Of a stretch of DNA of 34,702 nt, positions 10,996 to 24,836 are shown piece by piece. Numbering within the stretch: the stretch's first letter is position 1; each line of letters starts with the position of its first letter. This stretch comes from a virus. Lineage: Duplodnaviria; Caudoviricetes. The stretch lies in IMG/VR virus record IMGVR_UViG_3300017716_002150, positions 1-34,702 of that record; one strand, 5' to 3'. The translations under genes were made by a program, and so were the position numbers. The notes below the pieces were generated by a model. That model had not been told where the DNA came from. It was given only the letters and a program-made list of their open reading frames with translations, and did not search any database.

Positions 10996-11436
10996 ATGGC
11001 AAAAACCGTAAAAGGTACCAAAACAGAACACGCATTGAAAGATGCGTTCGCAGGCGAATCCAAAGCCAACCGCCGTTATTTGTATTTCGCAAACATGGCT
11101 GACGTAGCGGGCTCACCAGATGTGGCAGCAGTATTTCGCTCCACAGCCGAAGGTGAAACAGGTCATGCCCATGGTCACATGGAATATTTGATCGATGGTG
11201 GAGCAGGTGACCCTGAAACAGGTCTTCCAGCTGGCTCGGTTAAAGAAGCCCTAGAAAGTGCTATCGCTGGTGAAACACATGAGTACACAGATATGTACCC
11301 AGGCATGGCTAAAACAGCACGCGACGAAGGCTTTGACGAAATCGCTGACTGGTTTGAAACATTGGCTAAGGCTGAGCGTAGCCACGCAAACAAGTTCACC
11401 AAGACTTTGACAGCGCATTTAGAAGACATCAAGTAA
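10996..11436 (+). CDS. rbr: rubrerythrin (short form, no C-terminal rubredoxin domain)
   Basis: [38 protein letters not shown] di-iron motifs. Confidence 0.92.
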
Positions 11437-12018: not shown

Positions 12019-13026
12019 TTGAAACATTTATTTCTAGCAGTACTCGCAGTATTCACCGTAACAGCACAAGCCGCAGACATTACTGGCGCAGGTGCTACAT
12101 TTCCATATCCAATCTACGCCAAGTGGGCAGAAGATTATGCCAAACTTTCTGGTAATCGACTAAACTATCAAAGTATCGGTAGTTCTGGTGGTATTAAACA
12201 AATCAAAGCCAAGACTGTAGACTTTGGTGCCACAGATGCTCCGTTGTCAAGTGACGACCTAGCCAAGTCTGGTTTGGTGCAGTTTCCAGCGGTGTTGGGC
12301 GGTGTTGTTCCTGTGATAAACTTGGAAGGTATTAAACCAGGCGAATTGCAAGTCACAGCCGAAGTACTAGCAGACATTTTTCTAGGTAATATTACTAAAT
12401 GGAATGACGCTCGGCTTGCCAAGTTAAATCCAGGCAAAAAACTACCAGACACAGATATCACAGTGGTTCATCGTGCCGACGGATCCGGTACAACATTTAT
12501 TTTTACCGATTACTTGACGGAAGTCAGCAAGGAATGGAGCACCAAAGCCGGCAAAGGTGCCGCAGTCAAATGGCCAGCCAAGAGCAGTGTAGGAGGCAAA
12601 GGCAATGAAGGTGTAGCAGCAAACGTAACTCGTGTTAAAGGTGCAATCGGCTATGTCGAATATGCCTATGCCAAGAAAAACAAAATTGCACACCTTAAGT
12701 TACAAAATCGCGATGGCAAATTTGTGGATCCTGATGACACCACTTTTGCATCGGCTGCCGCAGGCGCTGATTGGTTTAGTGTTCCTGGTATGGGTATTAG
12801 TCTTGTGAATCAAAAGGGTGCAAGTGCTTGGCCTATTACTGGTGCTAGTTTTGTTTTAGTATACAAGGACCCAGCCAATCCAGCGGCCACACAAGAAGTC
12901 TTAAAGTTCTTTGACTATGCATTTACTTACGGAGCCAAACCGGCAGAGAGTCTTGACTATGTTCCACTACCAAAAACATTAACAGATAAAATCAAATCAC
13001 AAGTTTGGTCAACTGTTAAGAAGTAA
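12019..13026 (+). CDS. pstS: phosphate ABC transporter substrate-binding protein PstS
   Basis: signal peptide; ITGAGATFPYPIY, YQSIGSSGG, RADGSGTT, GKGNEGV. Confidence 0.96.
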   Translation: MKHLFLAVLAVFTVTAQAADITGAGATFPYPIYAKWAEDYAKLSGNRLNYQSIGSSGGIKQIKAKTVDFGATDAPLSSDDLAKSGLVQFPAVLGGVVPVINLEGIKPGELQVTAEVLADIFLGNITKWNDARLAKLNPGKKLPDTDITVVHRADGSGTTFIFTDYLTEVSKEWSTKAGKGAAVKWPAKSSVGGKGNEGVAANVTRVKGAIGYVEYAYAKKNKIAHLKLQNRDGKFVDPDDTTFASAAAGADWFSVPGMGISLVNQKGASAWPITGASFVLVYKDPANPAATQEVLKFFDYAFTYGAKPAESLDYVPLPKTLTDKIKSQVWSTVKK

Positions 13027-13125: not shown

Positions 13126-13938
13126 ATGCCAGAGAAAACTTACCGTTCAATTTTTATTTCAGATGTTCACCTGGGCACTCGCGACTGTAAGGCCGAGGCA
13201 CTTAATAATTTTCTCAAACACAATACCTGCGAAACCCTATATCTTGTAGGCGACATCATAGATGCCTGGCGTATTCAACAAAACAAGTGGCGTTGGAAAC
13301 AAAGCCATACTAATGTAGTTCGTCGAGTCATGGGTCATGCCAAACGAGGTACTCGTGTGGTATATGTTGCAGGCAATCACGACGAATTCCTTCGCCCCTT
13401 AATACCATTAGGCATTGGATTTGGGCTCATTGAAGTAGTAAATCAAGCAGAGCACATTGGAGTAGATACCAAACACTATCTGGTCACTCACGGCGACTTG
13501 TTTGATGGCATCACTCGTCTTGCTCCGTGGCTGGCTTTCCTTGGCGATAAAGCCTATGACTTTGTGCTCGGTCTCAATAGCAAATTCAATTGGCTACGTC
13601 ATCGTATGGGATTTGGATACTGGAGTTTAAGCAAGTATCTCAAAGGCAGAGTTAAAAAAGCCGCTGACTTTGTATTTCAATTTGAAAAGAATCTTGTTGT
13701 TTATTGTAAGAAGCGTGGATACGATGGTGTAATATGTGGACACATACACCACGCAGAAATTCGTGATGTAGATGGTATCACATATATGAACGATGGCGAC
13801 TGGGTAGAGAGTATGACTGCCTTAGTTGAAAATCACAACGGATTCTGGGAAATAGTAACCTGGACCAAGGAGACAGACGATGTGGCTGTTGATAATACTA
13901 GCAGTAAACATAAACAATCCAAAAGACGTGCCGGGTAG
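13126..13938 (+). CDS. plcP: PlcP-like metallophosphoesterase (phospholipase C; LpxH-like family)
   Basis: YRSIFISDVHLG, LYLVGDIIDAW, GNHDE, HGDLFD, CGHIHH, NDGDWVES; adjacent GT4 gene as in plcP-agt loci. Confidence 0.75.
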   Translation: MPEKTYRSIFISDVHLGTRDCKAEALNNFLKHNTCETLYLVGDIIDAWRIQQNKWRWKQSHTNVVRRVMGHAKRGTRVVYVAGNHDEFLRPLIPLGIGFGLIEVVNQAEHIGVDTKHYLVTHGDLFDGITRLAPWLAFLGDKAYDFVLGLNSKFNWLRHRMGFGYWSLSKYLKGRVKKAADFVFQFEKNLVVYCKKRGYDGVICGHIHHAEIRDVDGITYMNDGDWVESMTALVENHNGFWEIVTWTKETDDVAVDNTSSKHKQSKRRAG

Positions 13939-16977: not shown

Positions 16978-17016
16978 TAATAGGTGCATAACGCACTTAT
17001 AACAAAGGAAATAGCA

Positions 17017-17202
17017 ATGACAACTCATGAACAAATCGTAGAAGCATTTAATAACTATATTGCTGAAAACGAAAAATTCACAACCAAAGGCGTAAAAGCC
17101 TCTGCTGCTCGTGCTCGCAAAGCATTACAAGAAATGAGCAAAGGAATCAAAGAGCGTCGTAAAGAAATTACTGCTGAAAAAGAAGCTCTTGCCGCAAAGT
17201 AA
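17017..17202 (+). CDS. histone H1-like Hc1-family nucleoid protein
   Basis: EKF..KGVKASAARARKAL.E..K..KERRKE; AAGGA SD before ATG 17017. Confidence 0.75.
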   Translation: MTTHEQIVEAFNNYIAENEKFTTKGVKASAARARKALQEMSKGIKERRKEITAEKEALAAK

Positions 17203-17596: not shown

Positions 17597-18982
17597 ATGT
17601 CTGCATGGCAAGAATTTTATAACGAGATAAAAGACCCTAGTTGGCCGGAGTGTCCTACTGAGGATCAATTCCAACTGCTCCCAGAAAATATACAAAAAGA
17701 ATGTCAAGAAGTTTTTGGCTACGTTCCAGGATCATTTAAAAAAACTTCAAAACTACGCAATCAAGTTTTCCCTATACACACCAAAACTGCTTGCCAACTT
17801 AAATGGAATTGGAGCACTATATTTCTAACTACAGAAGAAACAGGTAGTTGCCATAGAACCAACCATCATAAGTTTGATACCGAAGAATTTAATTTTCATA
17901 ACACTCCTAATAAACTAGAAGATCGTCAACGTATGCTTGAAGGCGAGTGGCCCAAGCGAGGATGTGAGTACTGTAAGAATATCGAAGAAGCCGGGGGCAT
18001 CAGTGACAGAATTACAAATTTAGACTTTCCTGGAATACATGCACCGCCTGAGTTAGAAATCAATCCTCGGGCTGTGCAAGTTACTCCACGAATACTAGAA
18101 GTATATTTTGATAATACCTGTAATTTAAAATGTCTTTATTGCGGACCGCATTTTAGCAGTCTGTGGAATGCAGAAAACGTAAAGTTTGGACAGCCTGCGT
18201 TCAATAAAAGTACCAACATTGAAAAGAACAAACAAAAAATATTTGAATGGTTAAAAGTTAACGGAAAACATCTAACTAACTTTAACATACTGGGTGGTGA
18301 GCCTCTGTATCAACGTGAGCTGGATGATTGTTTAGATTTATTTGAACAATACCCTGCCCCAGAATTAAAACTTCAAATTTTTACCAATCTCAACACCAAA
18401 ATTAGTCACCTAACACAAGTGGTTGAACGTGTTAAAGGATTAGTTGACAGTGACAAACTTAGAGGGTTTGAAGTTACTGCCAGTCTGGATTGCTGGGGGC
18501 CACAACAAGAGTTTGTAAGATACCCGCTGGATTTAGTATCCTGGGAGAAGAACTTTGAATATTTACTATCACAAAAATGGATCAACTTGATTGTGAGCAG
18601 TACTGTTACTCCTTTAACAATTAAAACCTTGCCCGACTTGCTTAAAAAAATACAAGAATGGAATAAAATTCGTCCAGTGTATCATTATCAAAACAGTGTC
18701 AATAGTCCTAGTTATATGTTTATTGATATTTTTGGAAATATTTTTGCCGATGATTTTAATCAGGCACTAGAATTGAAACCAACGAACACACCGGAACAAC
18801 TATCCAGTAAAGAATATCTAAGCGGTATAGCCAAACAATCAAACGCCGCTAGTCCTAACGTAGTAGAAATAACAAAACTATTTGATTTTTTAAATGAGAT
18901 GGATCGACGTAGATCGACTAGTTGGCAGAAAATCTTTCCGTGGCTAGAAAAAGAGTTTAAAAAATATAGTTTAGTACCATAA
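17597..18982 (+). CDS. radical SAM enzyme with extra Cys (Twitch-like) region
   Basis: CNLKCLYC, GGEP, FTN; upstream CQLKW...SCH...GCEYC. Confidence 0.88.
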   Translation: MSAWQEFYNEIKDPSWPECPTEDQFQLLPENIQKECQEVFGYVPGSFKKTSKLRNQVFPIHTKTACQLKWNWSTIFLTTEETGSCHRTNHHKFDTEEFNFHNTPNKLEDRQRMLEGEWPKRGCEYCKNIEEAGGISDRITNLDFPGIHAPPELEINPRAVQVTPRILEVYFDNTCNLKCLYCGPHFSSLWNAENVKFGQPAFNKSTNIEKNKQKIFEWLKVNGKHLTNFNILGGEPLYQRELDDCLDLFEQYPAPELKLQIFTNLNTKISHLTQVVERVKGLVDSDKLRGFEVTASLDCWGPQQEFVRYPLDLVSWEKNFEYLLSQKWINLIVSSTVTPLTIKTLPDLLKKIQEWNKIRPVYHYQNSVNSPSYMFIDIFGNIFADDFNQALELKPTNTPEQLSSKEYLSGIAKQSNAASPNVVEITKLFDFLNEMDRRRSTSWQKIFPWLEKEFKKYSLVP

Positions 18983-19060
18983 TAGCTGTATATAATGACA
19001 AAAACATATCAAAACAAGTAGATTTTTTACTGGTTTAAATTTTTGTCACTAAGTATTTTA

Positions 19061-19341
19061 GAGAGTAGAAAAACAACCAGGCTGTCGTTGAATCGAACAG
19101 CGGAGGATTACAATCTAGATCTACTCCACAACGGATGGTCAGTGCCGCAAAGCTGACCGGTAGTAAAGAGGACTTCGGAAATCCTCTTCATTGACAAATG
19201 GTATGAGCCTTCTGGAAACAAAGGTTGGCTTAGAGAGTATGGCATTGAGGCCCGAGGTCTTGTCTGTCGCCGCCCAACACTCATTCTGTCAATGCGTCCA
19301 TTCGGGACATCCGCTGATGCGTACAGTATTACGCCGAGGAG
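19061..19341 (+). ncRNA. candidate large structured RNA / 5' leader of SleB-like gene
   Basis: at least 9 nested helices, with cUUCGg and GAAA tetraloops; TAAGTA at 19050 just upstream; ends at GAGGAG SD. Confidence 0.6.
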
Positions 19342-19348
19342 AACGAGC

Positions 19349-19996
19349 ATGAGACATTTATTCATATCGTTATTATTGGTAGCAAGTAGTACAGTAGTTG
19401 TAGCAAATGAAGTAGCAGAAGTAACATTTAAAAACACAGTCATCAACCAAACCACACAGTTTGTTGAACGCACTGTTAACATAATTGCCACACCATTCCT
19501 TAGTGATCGGGATATCGAGTGCATGGCACGAAATATATTCTATGAAGCTGGCGGTGAATCAACCGAAGGCAAAATTGCAGTCGGAGTGGTCACACTCAAT
19601 CGCACACGAGATGGTCGCTTTGGAAAAACAGTTTGTGATGTTGTCAAGGCTCGAACCGTGGTTGTCAAGGCTCGAGAAGTTAAACGGAATGAAATAGTTC
19701 AAGTTGGCTACTTCGGTCGTCCTGAAATGGTAGAGAAAAAGGAAGTAGTTGTACAACAAGTTCCTGTGTGCCAATTTTCGTGGGTATGCGCCGGTTATGT
19801 CCGTAAACCCAAAACTGACGACGAGCGTTGGATTGAGAGTCAAGAAATTGCCCAGCGCCTGGCTCAAGGTGACTACGAAGAAGAACGTAGCAAGTACGGT
19901 TCGGCGTTGTTTTTTCACAACAGTGGGATCCGTCCCATATGGGCTAAGACCAAGCAATTAGTGGCTCGAACAGGACGCCATATATTCTACGAATAA
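19349..19996 (+). CDS. SleB/CwlJ-like cell wall hydrolase (Hydrolase_2), secreted
   Basis: signal peptide; CMARNIFYEAGGES..GKIAV..V..NR, CQFSW, GRHIFY. Confidence 0.9.
   Translation: MRHLFISLLLVASSTVVVANEVAEVTFKNTVINQTTQFVERTVNIIATPFLSDRDIECMARNIFYEAGGESTEGKIAVGVVTLNRTRDGRFGKTVCDVVKARTVVVKAREVKRNEIVQVGYFGRPEMVEKKEVVVQQVPVCQFSWVCAGYVRKPKTDDERWIESQEIAQRLAQGDYEEERSKYGSALFFHNSGIRPIWAKTKQLVARTGRHIFYE
19640..19675 (+). repeat. 15-bp direct repeat inside CDS
   Basis: GTTGTCAAGGCTCGA at 19640 and 19661 (VVKAR twice). Confidence 0.85.
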
Positions 19997-20000
19997 CCAG

Positions 20001-20029
20001 TTGACCAAAAACGACCATTTTGTTATAAT
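20001..20029 (+). promoter_or_regulatory. sigma70-type promoter
   Basis: TTGACC-17-TATAAT, extended TG. Confidence 0.85.
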
Positions 20030-20059
20030 AGTTGTATTGTATAAAAATAGGAGAGAGAA

Positions 20060-20599
20060 TTGAAGTCAATCCCCTGGTTTAAGATAGTAGGATTTGTAGC
20101 TGTGGTATTCAGTGTTTATACTGTGAGTACCAATCGCCTGGATACCCTGCGCGGTACCAACGAAGCCGCACGTCAAGGCTTTATCAGTGCCGAGCATCGC
20201 ACACAGCAGTTGGCCTGCCTGACCAAGAACATTTATCACGAAGCTGCCTTTGAGCCATTTGAAGGCAAGGTTGCTGTGGCACAGGTCACAATGAATCGTG
20301 TAGAAGCTGGTCGATTTGGTCAGGATGTCTGCGGTGTTGTATATCAAAAGAATGTGGTCTACGAACGGGTTATTTGTCAGTTTTCGTGGACCTGTATAGG
20401 TGGACTGGCAATTAAACCCGTAGCACCTGCACATTGGAAAGAATCAGAAGAAGTAGCCAAAAAGGTCTTGCTCGAAGGCTTCCGTTTGCCCAGCATGAAA
20501 GACGCCATGTATTATCATGCCGATTATGTCAACCCTAGATGGGGCAAGCCACAAATTACCAAAATTGGTCGCCACATTTTCTACCGTGAAAGCATATAA
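20060..20599 (+). CDS. second SleB-like cell wall hydrolase
   Basis: TTG start with AGGAG SD; CLTKNIYHEA, CQFSW, YYHADYVNP.W, IGRHIFY. Confidence 0.9.
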   Translation: MKSIPWFKIVGFVAVVFSVYTVSTNRLDTLRGTNEAARQGFISAEHRTQQLACLTKNIYHEAAFEPFEGKVAVAQVTMNRVEAGRFGQDVCGVVYQKNVVYERVICQFSWTCIGGLAIKPVAPAHWKESEEVAKKVLLEGFRLPSMKDAMYYHADYVNPRWGKPQITKIGRHIFYRESI

Positions 20600-20925
20600 T
20601 GAATATCGATATTCGAAACAACATTAACATCAATATAAAAAGCATCAACGAGTTTTTAAACAAACACTTATCCAAGATTTCAGCAGAAACCCTGTTATGG
20701 TTAGCCGGAATAGTTATACACTGTGCAACCATACCAACCTTATTGGCCTTGATGACCGGACTTAGTGATCGTACACCTAACTTGGACATTGTGTTGTTTA
20801 TGTGGGTCGGTTTAGTCTTGTTGTTTGGTCGTGCTGTAGTGCTCAAAGACACTTTAAACGTCATCACTATCGGTGCAGGATTTATCATACAAGCCACCTT
20901 AATGGCCATGATCTTGTTCAAATAA
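20599..20925 (+). CDS. small multi-pass membrane protein
   Basis: 3 hydrophobic segments; coupled (TAATG) to the hydrolase. Confidence 0.7.
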   Translation: MNIDIRNNININIKSINEFLNKHLSKISAETLLWLAGIVIHCATIPTLLALMTGLSDRTPNLDIVLFMWVGLVLLFGRAVVLKDTLNVITIGAGFIIQATLMAMILFK

Positions 20926-21541: not shown

Positions 21542-21760
21542 ATGAGCAAAGATGATTTTATTAAAATGGAAGGCGTTATAGCAGAAGTTCTGCGTAATAC
21601 TCAATACCGAGTTCAGCTTGAGAATTTTGAAAAACCTGTACTTGCAAGCCTAAGTGGCCGTATGCGTCAAAACAACATCAAAGTTTTAACCGGCGACATA
21701 GTAGAGTTAGAATTCAGCCCATATGATTTGACCCGTGGACGAATTGTCCGCCGTAGATAA
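21542..21760 (+). CDS. infA: translation initiation factor IF-1
   Basis: MSKDD.I.MEG.I.E.L.N..YRV.LEN...SGRMR...I.VLTGD.V.LE.SPYDLTRGRI. Confidence 0.95.
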   Translation: MSKDDFIKMEGVIAEVLRNTQYRVQLENFEKPVLASLSGRMRQNNIKVLTGDIVELEFSPYDLTRGRIVRRR

Positions 21761-21768
21761 GTAATAAT

Positions 21769-22317
21769 ATGGACATGCGTAAAGAAATCAATTTAATAGA
21801 AGCAAGCACTCAACCGGCCAAGCTAGAAACTACTCCTTTGCCTTACACGGAACGGGCCTTGGAGCCTGTGATGAGCAAGGCCACAATCGACTATCACTAT
21901 GAGCACCTAGCTAAAGGTTATGCTAAACGCTACAATGCCGATGAAGGCAATGCTGCATTTAACCGTGCTGGTAGCTTCTTACACAATAAGTTCTTTCCTC
22001 AACTACAGCCTCCTAAAGGTGCTAATCGTCCCAAGGGCGCAGTACTAGAGTTAATCGAAAGTAACTTTAAAACCTATGAAGACTTTAAAATCGAATTTAA
22101 AAAAGTGGCCATGGCCATCCAGGGATCAGGCTGGGTATATCTTAGCACATCGGGCACAATTAAAACCATCCCAAATCATCAGGTTAGAACAGATATCTGT
22201 GTACTCGTTGACTGGTGGGAACATGCCTGGGCACTTGACTATCAAAGCGACAAAGAAAAATACCTAGACAATATTTGGAAAATTATTAACTGGTCAGTCT
22301 GTAGCGAACGTCTGTAG
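21769..22317 (+). CDS. sod: Fe/Mn superoxide dismutase (compact)
   Basis: LPY...ALEP.MS..T..YH, LHN.FF, QGSGW, DWWEHA. Confidence 0.9.
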   Translation: MDMRKEINLIEASTQPAKLETTPLPYTERALEPVMSKATIDYHYEHLAKGYAKRYNADEGNAAFNRAGSFLHNKFFPQLQPPKGANRPKGAVLELIESNFKTYEDFKIEFKKVAMAIQGSGWVYLSTSGTIKTIPNHQVRTDICVLVDWWEHAWALDYQSDKEKYLDNIWKIINWSVCSERL

Positions 22318-23891: not shown

Positions 23892-24516
23892 CCTGGACTA
23901 TCTAATTCCCCAGGATCTAATTGAATACTGTGAATTTGATCAGTTCAACTTTGGTTTGTCATTGACGGCTACTAGCGCACGAAATCGTTGGCCCACTGTA
24001 AAAGTATGGTTAGACGGAAAACTTATTGCATCAGACATAGTTGACAATCATGGATTTGAGTACCGGTATAGTGAACGACTAGATATGTCTCTATCGGCCA
24101 AGGTATTGGAAATTGAATACAATGGCAAAAACGACGAAGACACTGTAGTTGACCAACATGGCAATATATTAGAAAATCAAAGTCTTTCAATCCGGAGTTT
24201 AATAGTAAATCGTGTAGATATTATTAACAATGATATTATTCAACAGCTAGGTAGCTACACCAGATCATTTAGCCCAGAAAAACTTAAATACTACGAGCAA
24301 AACAATTTAAGTACAGAACCCACTGACAGTTTAGACATGTACGAAAATGGCCGTTGGCGTATGACTTTTCCTATACCCATTGTTACAAACTTGTCTAAAA
24401 TTAAAAACAAAATAGATCCGCAGGTGCAGTGGCCTGATCCTATTTTGATTGGAGAGATAGTAAACACCATACATGCCATTAGAGATTTAGAAAAACAATT
24501 AAAGGAACGCAAATGA
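23863..24516 (+). CDS. hypothetical protein coupled to the B12-radical SAM gene
   Basis: 217 aa overlapping both neighbours. Confidence 0.7.
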   Translation: MTLHSSQQTNLDYLIPQDLIEYCEFDQFNFGLSLTATSARNRWPTVKVWLDGKLIASDIVDNHGFEYRYSERLDMSLSAKVLEIEYNGKNDEDTVVDQHGNILENQSLSIRSLIVNRVDIINNDIIQQLGSYTRSFSPEKLKYYEQNNLSTEPTDSLDMYENGRWRMTFPIPIVTNLSKIKNKIDPQVQWPDPILIGEIVNTIHAIRDLEKQLKERK

Positions 24517-24836
24517 TTATAGAAACAACTGCTGTTGAAAAAATTAAAGATATTTTAGCCGAAGAAAATAATCCAGAATTACGACTACGTGTATTTGTAC
24601 AGGGCGGCGGTTGCTCAGGCATGCAGTATGGATTTACTCTGGATAGTGTGCAAAACGATGACGACTTTAACACCGACATTGATGGTATTTCTGTACTGGT
24701 CGACAGCACAAGTTGGCAATACTTACACGACGCTAAAATACGCTACGATGACGGTGTAATGGGGGCAAGTTTTGTAATTGATAATCCCAATGCTCAAAGC
24801 ACCTGCGGTTGCGGCAGTTCATTTAATCCGTACTAG
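24513..24836 (+). CDS. erpA: A-type Fe-S carrier ErpA/IscA (HesB family)
   Basis: LRVFVQGGGCSGMQYGF, NPNAQSTCGCGSSF. Confidence 0.93.
   Translation: MIIETTAVEKIKDILAEENNPELRLRVFVQGGGCSGMQYGFTLDSVQNDDDFNTDIDGISVLVDSTSWQYLHDAKIRYDDGVMGASFVIDNPNAQSTCGCGSSFNPY

What the first reader, a model, noticed from the sequence alone, without database searches (positions are those of the whole stretch)
19050..19348. Large multi-domain structured RNA leader upstream of a cell-wall hydrolase
Seen: ~280 nt of non-coding, GC-richer sequence starting just after TAAGTA (19050). Domain 1 is GAGTAGA(19063)/TCTACTC(19120) enclosing GCTGT/ACAGC. Domain 2 is CGGATG(19132)/CATCCG(19308) closing a five-way junction with GTCAG/CTGAC, AAGAGGA-cUUCGg-TCCTCTT, CATTGACA(19189)/TGTCAATG(19287) (with inner GAAA-loop, GAGT/ACTC and GAGGCC/GGTCTT stems) and GTCC/GGAC. 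Domain 3 is GCGTA/TACGC right before the GAGGAG SD. The helices are nested and mutually compatible. I could not match it by eye to c-di-AMP, c-di-GMP, cobalamin or lysine riboswitches, RNase P or tmRNA. Inference: a novel riboswitch-like lysis-timing element or an independent ncRNA.
Basis: partly seen in the sequence, partly recalled or inferred. Interest (0 to 1): 0.8.

Follow-up and report, generated by a model that had tools for sequence, protein, structure and literature searches.

The report
Two-state RNA before phage wall enzyme
In front of their predicted cell-wall-cutting enzyme gene, giant uncultured phages carry a conserved, knotted RNA that matches no catalogued family; it likely folds first into a shape that hides the ribosome-binding site and only later refolds to free it, which would delay making the enzyme.

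Summary
The RNA is real. There is no Rfam, tRNA or tmRNA match. I found 86 distinct full-length cores, 61% identical on average. All 86 abut a Hydrolase_2 gene, from two subfamilies about 30% identical. In the 82 that keep the 3' pseudoknot, it ends 12-16 nt before the start codon. No reading frame is conserved.

Its closing helix CGGATG/CATCCG and its GAGT/ACTC stem fail, the 5' domain is an optional module, and it missed a covarying pseudoknot at 19313-19334.

The core (19166-19341) holds two near-invariant strands, each with a near and a far partner. The near fold is predicted first; full length, the two folds are predicted about equally stable. The far fold ties up an anti-Shine-Dalgarno UCC. 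Best reading (0.4): a default-off translational switch that refolds on. Neither swap covaries significantly, and no expression data exist.

One internal loop matches E. coli 5S loop E at 13 of 14 bases in 45 of 86 copies. The scan has reported this family before on other phage genomes.

The parts
19050..19055 (+). TAAGTA, late-promoter-like motif marking the likely 5' edge of the transcript (promoter function inferred)
   Evidence: TAA[GA]TA lies 26-163 nt before P3 in 78 of 86 copies; 6 of the other 8 are cut by contig ends. The motif occurs 15 times on + and 6 on - in the window, several just before gene starts. Likeness to the T4 late promoter is recalled.
19063..19126 (+). Optional 5' module A: P1 (19063-69/19120-26) enclosing P2 (19081-84/19098-101)
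   Evidence: Changes on both sides in 3 P1 pairs and 1 P2 pair among 42 copies. Replaced by other modules or absent in relatives such as L075, L043, L033, L286, L366.
19137..19158 (+). Optional 5' module C: hairpin 19138-43/19152-57 with a conserved loop
   Evidence: 4 pairs with changes on both sides among 42 copies; a different loop or no hairpin in other clades.
19166..19188 (+). Core P3 hairpin (19166-72/19182-88) with 9-nt loop L3 holding invariant UCGG
   Evidence: 597 of 602 cells paired; one pair significant against a tree-based null.
19189..19196 (+). Near-invariant strand P4a; pairs with 19240-44 (near) or 19287-94 (far)
   Evidence: Near: 86, 86, 86 and 82 of 86 at four pairs, with an A opposite G or C and never U. 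Far: 638 of 688 cells.
19197..19239 (+). 7x7 internal loop (19197-203/19233-39) resembling bacterial 5S loop E, closing variable hairpin P5 (base 19204-08/19228-32)
   Evidence: 13 of 14 bases match E. coli rrfH in 45 of 86 copies, 10-12 in 14, 8 or fewer in 27. All 5 P5 base pairs show changes on both sides.
19240..19260 (+). Near partners: TG(G/C)CA 19240-44; P6 (19248-51/19257-60) with loop L6 CCGAG 19252-56, complementary to L3
   Evidence: L3-L6 paired in 502 of 516 cells; one change on both sides in L263, another in the degenerate copy L120; not significant.
19261..19294 (+). Variable C/U-rich linker, then far partner P4b (19287-94)
   Evidence: Linker is 71% C+U and 8% G; it pairs with the SD no better than its shuffles (z -0.09, n=73).
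19296..19308 (+). P7 hairpin (19296-99/19305-08) with loop L7, most often AUCCU
   Evidence: 330 of 344 cells paired, with many double changes. L7 can form 4 bp with the SD in 64 of 86 copies.
19310..19313 (+). J8 (TCCG): far partner of L3 and candidate anti-Shine-Dalgarno
   Evidence: L3-J8 paired in 337 of 344 cells, with one A-U to C-G swap in a 4-member clade and C-to-U changes that keep wobble pairs. At least 3 bp with the SD in 75 of 86 copies.
19313..19334 (+). H-type pseudoknot: S1 19313-16/19324-27 and S2 19319-23/19330-34
   Evidence: Four S2 pairs and one S1 pair at E<0.05 (columns fitted to the structure). In an unguided alignment two S2 pairs reach E=0.00 and one S1 pair E=0.20. 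Present in 82 of 86; a plain hairpin in 4.
19336..19341 (+). Shine-Dalgarno GAGGAG
   Evidence: Sequence; GGA lies 2-7 nt after S2 in 82 of 82 copies.
19349..19996 (+). Hydrolase_2 (SleB-like) cell-wall hydrolase A with a hydrophobic, signal-peptide-like N terminus
   Evidence: PF07486 E 5e-20; PHROG 938 endolysin; family profile matches SleB structures 4F55 and 4FET; hydrophobic N-terminal stretch in 83 of 86 downstream proteins.
20060..20599 (+). Second Hydrolase_2 gene (B), 30% identical to A; its orthologues follow the RNA directly in about 51 of 86 copies
   Evidence: my tally from the table. It has its own sigma-70-like site at 20001-20029.

Best explanation
This is a conserved, non-coding, pseudoknotted leader RNA that sits directly before the phage's predicted cell-wall hydrolase gene and likely works as a default-off translational switch that refolds to the on state after a delay. 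SHOWN: the family, its fixed position, the lack of a conserved reading frame, and helices P3, P5, P7, S1 and S2. INFERRED: (1) Transcription starts just after TAAGTA late in infection. (2) As the chain is made, the 5' half closes on its near partners: P4a with 19240-44 around the loop-E-like loop, and L3 with L6. (3) J8 (UCC) is then free and pairs with the GGA(G) of the Shine-Dalgarno by extending S2, possibly helped by L7, so translation is off. (4) The far strand P4b later displaces the near partner of P4a, L3 swaps from L6 to J8, S1 completes the pseudoknot, and the Shine-Dalgarno is exposed 2-4 nt past it, so translation is on. (5) Slow refolding would act as a timer for an enzyme that is likely exported by its own N terminus. 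The optional 5' modules would tune this.
For: Cis link: 86 of 86 cores precede a Hydrolase_2 gene; 58 of the 86 representative loci came from DNA-pattern scans that did not use the protein. Pseudoknot to start codon is 12-16 nt in 82 of 82. Upstream genes fall in 7 families among 74 loci. One copy in each of 5 of 5 near-complete 317-349 kb genomes. Two partners each: L3 with L6 (502 of 516 cells) or J8 (337 of 344); P4a with the near strand (four pairs at 82-86 of 86) or P4b (638 of 688). Separate bases back each L3 pairing: the invariant U of UCGG fits L6, and the A-to-C change matched by U-to-G fits J8. The near helix always keeps an A opposite G or C (0 of 86 paired), and the first S1 pair is G-U in 81 of 82 and never G-C; both fit helices kept weak on purpose. 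Order and balance: the 5' half alone forms the near L3-L6 pairing with P>0.5 in 99% of 86 (for the window). Full length, the two folds differ by -0.5 +/- 2.7 kcal/mol and by 3 or less in 62 of 86. J8 can form at least 3 bp with the SD in 75 of 86 and is the top SD partner in 43 of 86 when L3-J8 is not modelled. Precedent for silencing a phage lysin at translation: T4 gene e (PMC3014915, passages).
Against: None of the swap pairings covaries significantly (E>30 for every tested L3-L6, L3-J8, P4 and near-helix pair). Short complementarities among invariant segments can arise by chance. Seven of 86 copies break the fourth L3-J8 pair, and L061 breaks a central L3-L6 pair. The extended near helix shows no coevolution (permutation p 0.11). 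In the nested energy model the SD is only slightly freer in the far fold (0.37 against 0.28; freer in 54 of 86), and that model omits all pseudoknots. J8 pairs only 2 bp with the SD in 11 of 86, and the linker is no better an anti-SD than its shuffles. Many related phages express the same hydrolase without the RNA: among relatives 45-60% identical, 23 lack it and 9 have it, 5 unknown. Promoter, export and lysis role are all inferred.
Confidence: 0.4

Rival explanations
1. The same two folds exist, but a bound metabolite, ion or protein sets the balance rather than time. One candidate is free ribosomal protein bL25 binding the loop-E-like loop and holding the near, off fold.
For: Many invariant junction bases. 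The loop matches E. coli 5S loop E at 13 of 14 bases in 45 of 86 copies, with helices on both sides. Loop E is the L25 site (PMC4408793, passages). c-di-GMP riboswitches occur in a prophage lysis module (PMC3649979, one passage).
Against: 27 of 86 copies match loop E at 8 or fewer bases, and a 13-of-14 match also occurs inside a coding gene at 13771. No known aptamer family matches. The near fold's junction has almost no unpaired bases to make a pocket (sequence).
Confidence: 0.2
2. One static fold (P3, P4, L3-J8, P7, pseudoknot) acts as a translation enhancer or ribosome-loading platform late in infection; the near pairings are folding intermediates or chance.
For: The significantly covarying pairs (P3, S1, S2) are all compatible with the far fold. 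The pseudoknot ends at a fixed 12-16 nt from the start codon. A pseudoknot switch for translation of plasmid repZ is in print (title seen in a reference list only; its activating role is recalled).
Against: It does not explain why 19240-44 and the CCG of L6 are invariant and complementary, in register, to P4a and L3. L120 keeps a compensated L3-L6 match after its 3' partners decayed.
Confidence: 0.2
3. An independent late non-coding RNA, possibly a multimer in which one L3 partner is used within a molecule and the other between molecules; the hydrolase gene is only its neighbour.
For: It starts at its own promoter-like motif and has a large, modular 5' part (196-364 nt from motif to start codon). 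Two partners for one loop would suit pairing between molecules. The 3' pseudoknot could protect a processed end.
Against: Never seen away from a hydrolase start (86 of 86), with fixed spacing across two enzyme subfamilies. No terminator-like site on + in 18700-20200.
Confidence: 0.12
4. A self-cleaving or self-splicing RNA that processes the 5' end of the hydrolase mRNA.
For: Size, several pseudoknots and an invariant core are typical of ribozymes (general knowledge). It is present or absent at the same gene junction among relatives, such as L102.
Against: No ribozyme or intron family matches. It interrupts no reading frame, and it is single-copy per genome.
Confidence: 0.05

Closest known systems
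T4 gene e (lysozyme) inhibitory leader (PMC3014915, passages)
   Same: RNA structure in front of a phage cell-wall enzyme that hides the ribosome-binding site to prevent early lysis.
   Different: In T4 the hairpin forms only on early read-through transcripts, and late promoters start inside it. Here the promoter-like motif lies upstream of the whole 185-350 nt element, so any switch must happen within one transcript.
T4 gene 32 and E. coli rpsO pseudoknot operators (PMC3014915, passages)
   Same: H-type pseudoknot in a 5' leader linked to translational control.
   Different: They are small and are bound by their own RNA-binding gene product. Here the product is a predicted exported enzyme, and the pseudoknot is the end of a much larger fold.
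IncI-alpha plasmid repZ pseudoknot switch (title in a reference list; mechanism recalled)
   Same: A long-range pairing near the Shine-Dalgarno is the proposed on state.
   Different: That switch needs translation of a leader peptide and is blocked by an antisense RNA. No conserved upstream frame exists here.
c-di-AMP (ydaO-yuaA) and c-di-GMP-I riboswitches
   Same: Structured leaders linked to cell-wall or lysis genes; c-di-GMP-I occurs in a PhiCD119-like lysis module (PMC3649979, one passage). The ydaO link to wall hydrolases is recalled.
   Different: No match to their Rfam models at E up to 10 (window) or 5 (20 relatives).
Bacterial 5S rRNA loop E
   Same: Symmetric 7x7 loop, 13 of 14 bases identical to E. 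coli rrfH in the window and 44 relatives, with pairable flanks.
   Different: A module inside an mRNA leader, not a 5S rRNA. The flanking helices differ in sequence, and 27 of 86 copies match at 8 or fewer bases.

Membership tests
Any Rfam 15 family (riboswitches, RNase P, introns, ribozymes) | Covariance-model score at the family's gathering threshold | tested here: not met
   0 hits in the window. Best E 2.8 around the locus. One hit at E 2.2, outside the RNA core, in 20 relatives.
tRNA or tmRNA | ARAGORN gene call | tested here: not met
   0 genes in the window.
Riboswitch (general) | Conserved structure in cis to one gene class | tested here: met
   86 of 86 before Hydrolase_2; covariation.
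Riboswitch (general) | Alternative folds that expose or hide the expression signal | tested here: inconclusive
   Two partners for L3 and P4a and near-equal energies, but no significant covariation of the swaps and only a small modelled change in SD exposure.
Riboswitch (general) | Selective binding of a small ligand | not testable with these tools
   Needs in-line probing or binding assays.
T4 gene e-type inhibitory leader | Late promoter lies downstream of the 5' strand of the inhibitory helix | tested here: not met
   The promoter-like motif is upstream of the whole core in 78 of 78 copies where seen.
Leader-peptide or translational-coupling element | Conserved upstream reading frame | tested here: not met
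   Distance from the TTG in P4a to the start codon falls 23, 43 and 20 into the three frames. No frame is open through the core in more than 14 of 86.
Bacterial loop E motif | Symmetric 7x7 loop with the 5S sequence between two helices | tested here: inconclusive
   13 of 14 in 45 of 86 and 10-12 in 14, but 8 or fewer in 27; one chance-like match elsewhere in the window.
Bacterial loop E motif | Non-canonical pair geometry and bL25 binding | not testable with these tools
   Needs structure or a binding assay. The L25-5S structure paper was not held.
Dicistrovirus IGR IRES (recalled) | Pseudoknot replaces initiator tRNA; no SD or AUG needed | tested here: not met
   An SD-like GGA follows the pseudoknot in 82 of 82, and an ATG, GTG or TTG start was found in all 86.

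The most novel reading that the evidence does not exclude
A phage-specific RNA clock for lysis: a 185-nt core folds off as it is made and flips on through linked strand swaps (P4a near to far, L3 from L6 to J8, J8 off the Shine-Dalgarno). Its rate is tuned by swappable 5' modules and, in one large clade, by a 5S loop E mimic that reads free ribosomal protein bL25. It would time a self-exporting wall enzyme without relying on a holin.
Probability: 0.15. Interest if true: 0.88.

Novelty: new variant of a known kind. Interest (0 to 1): 0.62.

Why it matters
A 2010 review noted that no riboswitch had been functionally characterised from T4 (PMC3014915, passage). The phage lysis-gene RNA controls I found in print are simple hairpins or a borrowed host riboswitch. 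This is a larger, uncatalogued, phage-only family with a modular 5' part and a defined set of competing helices. If it switches, it adds an RNA-level route to timing lysis in jumbo phages and gives a new switch scaffold. The hypothesis can be tested directly with a reporter and a few compensatory mutants. If it does not switch, it is still a new large structured RNA family ready for probing and cryo-EM.

Tried and rejected
Rfam on the window and 20 relatives, ARAGORN, and blastn against 50,697 cultured phage records gave nothing; the 2 blastn matches were 28-nt chance hits at E 4.

Model R1 over five whole records (PA5oct, Motura, X1, Bhz51 and one 499-kb viral contig) gave one weak match at E 0.3. 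Four cultured hydrolase loci have only short gaps upstream.

One pattern scan of 185,579 prokaryote genomes gave 30 loci. One is a real copy (L439, a 2.4-kb contig in a metagenome bin, hydrolase downstream, likely phage DNA) and two are weak. The pattern had a gap too long for most copies: 1 of 64 loci was real (L263).

Upstream ORF or N-terminal extension: rejected. TTGACA in P4a as a promoter -35 box: no -10 box follows and the scan did not list it. Linker as a specific anti-SD: rejected. Coevolution of the fully extended near helix: not shown. Hairpin overlapping the promoter motif: z -2.3 in the window, but z below -2 in only 8 of 77 copies. A strict pattern for the catalytic glutamate matched 37 of 86 proteins and was uninformative; E66 is invariant in alignment A1 and aligns with the SleB glutamate.

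Sequencing runs: no RNA holder listed. The hydrolase tree ran only in quick mode and is used only for clustering. It labels L120 as lacking the RNA, although later found a degenerate copy there.

Literature: searches returned 0 papers. Searches returned listings in which I saw no description of this RNA. For the catalogue of 10,006 viral structured RNAs (PMC10690425) I saw the listing, the file list and part 1 of two tables; three smaller files were text-searched with no hit. Its alignments and figures could not be read, so pieces of this RNA may be among those unnamed candidates.

Full report
Setting. The window is a 34.7-kb virus record with T4-like genes: a clamp loader, a baseplate connector, IF-1, superoxide dismutase and radical-SAM proteins. 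Its clamp loader is closest, among cultured phages, to Pseudomonas jumbo phage PA5oct at 52%. Relatives that carry the RNA reach 317-349 kb. The finding lies between a radical-SAM gene (ends 18982) and two tandem Hydrolase_2 genes at 19349-19996 and 20060-20599, which are 30% identical.

The observation. Alone, the stretch folds no better than shuffles (z -0.17), so I gathered relatives with protein scans and protein-independent DNA patterns. Profile searches over all fetched loci gave 210 loci with a hit, 194 full length and 86 distinct cores, 61% identical on average. Partial and duplicate hits were dropped from all later counts. On an unguided alignment of 42 diverse cores, my far fold pairs in 91.2% of cells and my near fold in 90.8%, with 0-1 of 500 shuffles as high on every measure. 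That shuffle control ignores kinship, so I also ran my own tree-based null. On structure-fitted columns, four S2 pairs, one S1 pair and one P3 pair reach E<0.05; the fitting inflates this. On the unguided alignment two S2 pairs reach E=0.00, and the next two are a P3 pair (0.17) and an S1 pair (0.20).

The proposed closing helix overlaps P7 at C19308 and has no partner in 20 of 78 copies. GAGT/ACTC is not conserved. Everything 5' of 19166 is modular: module A, a different pseudoknot-like module B, hairpin C, combinations of these, or almost nothing, as in L043, where the promoter-like motif lies 26 nt before P3. The last hairpin is half of an H-type pseudoknot, kept in 82 of 86 copies. No reading frame is conserved, so neither a leader peptide nor the extension from 19292 explains the conservation.

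It acts in cis, by inference. All 86 cores precede a Hydrolase_2 gene, about 35 of type A and 51 of type B (my tally). The pseudoknot ends 12-16 nt before the start codon in 82 of 82. Upstream genes come from 7 families among 74 loci. Five of 5 near-complete genomes hold exactly one copy. The RNA is not needed for the gene as such. Among hydrolase A relatives found by protein, it is present in 27 of 28 at 60% identity or more (1 unknown), 9 of 37 at 45-60% (23 lack it, 5 unknown) and 0 of 30 below 45%. A later model search of 90 sources added a cut copy (L103) and a degenerate one (L120).

How it likely works. Two near-invariant strands each have two partners. P4a pairs either with 19240-44, closing the 7x7 loop, or with 19287-94. 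Loop L3 pairs either with L6 (CCGAG) or with J8 (TCCG). Different bases support each L3 pairing: the invariant U fits L6, with compensated variants in L263 and L120, and a four-member clade changes A-U to C-G in L3-J8. The near partners are transcribed first, and the 5' half alone is predicted to take the near fold in 99% of copies. Full length, the folds are predicted within 3 kcal/mol in 62 of 86. J8 reads UCC, often CUCC, and can pair with the SD by at least 3 bp in 75 of 86. L3 carries a GGA that can take J8 away. This gives a chain: L6 holds L3, J8 holds the SD, translation is off; after P4b invades, L3 takes J8, S1 closes the pseudoknot, and the SD is free. The downstream proteins have hydrophobic N termini in 83 of 86, so they likely leave the cytoplasm by themselves, which would make a delay at translation useful. 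All of this is inference. No swap pair covaries significantly, the energy model omits pseudoknots and shows only a small SD difference, and the extended near helix does not coevolve (p 0.11). I put 0.4 on a self-timed switch, 0.2 on the same switch set by a ligand or protein, 0.2 on a static enhancer, 0.12 on an independent RNA and 0.05 on a ribozyme.

Loop E. The internal loop matches E. coli 5S positions 72-78 and 98-104 at 13 of 14 bases in 45 of 86 copies, between pairable flanks. Loop E is the L25 site (PMC4408793, passages). The match decays in distant clades, and a 13-of-14 match also occurs in a coding gene of the window. It is a lead for a binding test, not a shown mimic.

Comparison and novelty. 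Its nearest working analogue is the T4 gene e leader, but it fails that type's defining promoter geometry. It matches no Rfam family. My literature searches showed no description, but the alignments of PMC10690425 could not be read. Earlier agents of this scan reported the family on other genomes. One of them describes three linked helix swaps; I read that note after deriving mine, and it is not independent evidence. Verdict: a real, uncatalogued, phage-specific leader RNA family and a new variant of a known kind (translational cis-regulator), interest 0.62.

Noticed in passing
window 18994-19051: A long hairpin just upstream of and touching the promoter-like motif (z -2.3), present only on read-through transcripts. 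It is not general: z below -2 in 8 of 77 copies.
   Followed up: yes
window 20599-20925: 108-aa, strongly hydrophobic protein overlapping the stop of hydrolase B, with no Pfam or PHROG match; holin-like by position and hydropathy only.
   Followed up: partly
window 20001-20029: Near-consensus sigma-70 site (11 of 12) gives hydrolase B its own promoter when hydrolase A sits between it and the RNA.
   Followed up: no
L075, L310, L308, L263 and L120, 5' of the core: Module B: a hairpin whose loop appears complementary to a conserved stretch about 10 nt downstream, a likely extra pseudoknot. L308 and L293 carry modules A, B and C together (read by eye).
   Followed up: partly
L120 1150-1413: Degenerate copy: P3 and a compensated L3-L6 match survive, while P4b, P7, J8 and S1 have decayed and only S2 remains before the SD.
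   Followed up: partly
L102, upstream of its hydrolase match: Same promoter-like motif before a hydrolase A relative, but only about 30 nt to the SD and no RNA: a natural RNA-less control.
   Followed up: no
window 19102-19109 and 19180-19187: The purine-rich loop of module A can pair over 8 bp with the 3' strand of P3 in window-like copies; no changes on both sides.
   Followed up: no
window 13771-13813: A second 13-of-14 match to 5S loop E, inside the metallophosphoesterase gene; judged chance.
   Followed up: yes
window 10996-11436, 12019-13026, 16984-17202, 21542-21760, 21769-22317, 24513-24836: Host-like genes in the phage: rubrerythrin, phosphate-binding protein, Hc1-like protein, IF-1, Fe/Mn superoxide dismutase and an Fe-S assembly protein. 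IF-1 lies 2 kb downstream of the leader and could bear on its translation.
   Followed up: no
L439 912-1100: A full copy with its hydrolase on a 2.4-kb contig binned into a Dehalococcoidia metagenome-assembled genome; likely mis-binned phage DNA.
   Followed up: partly
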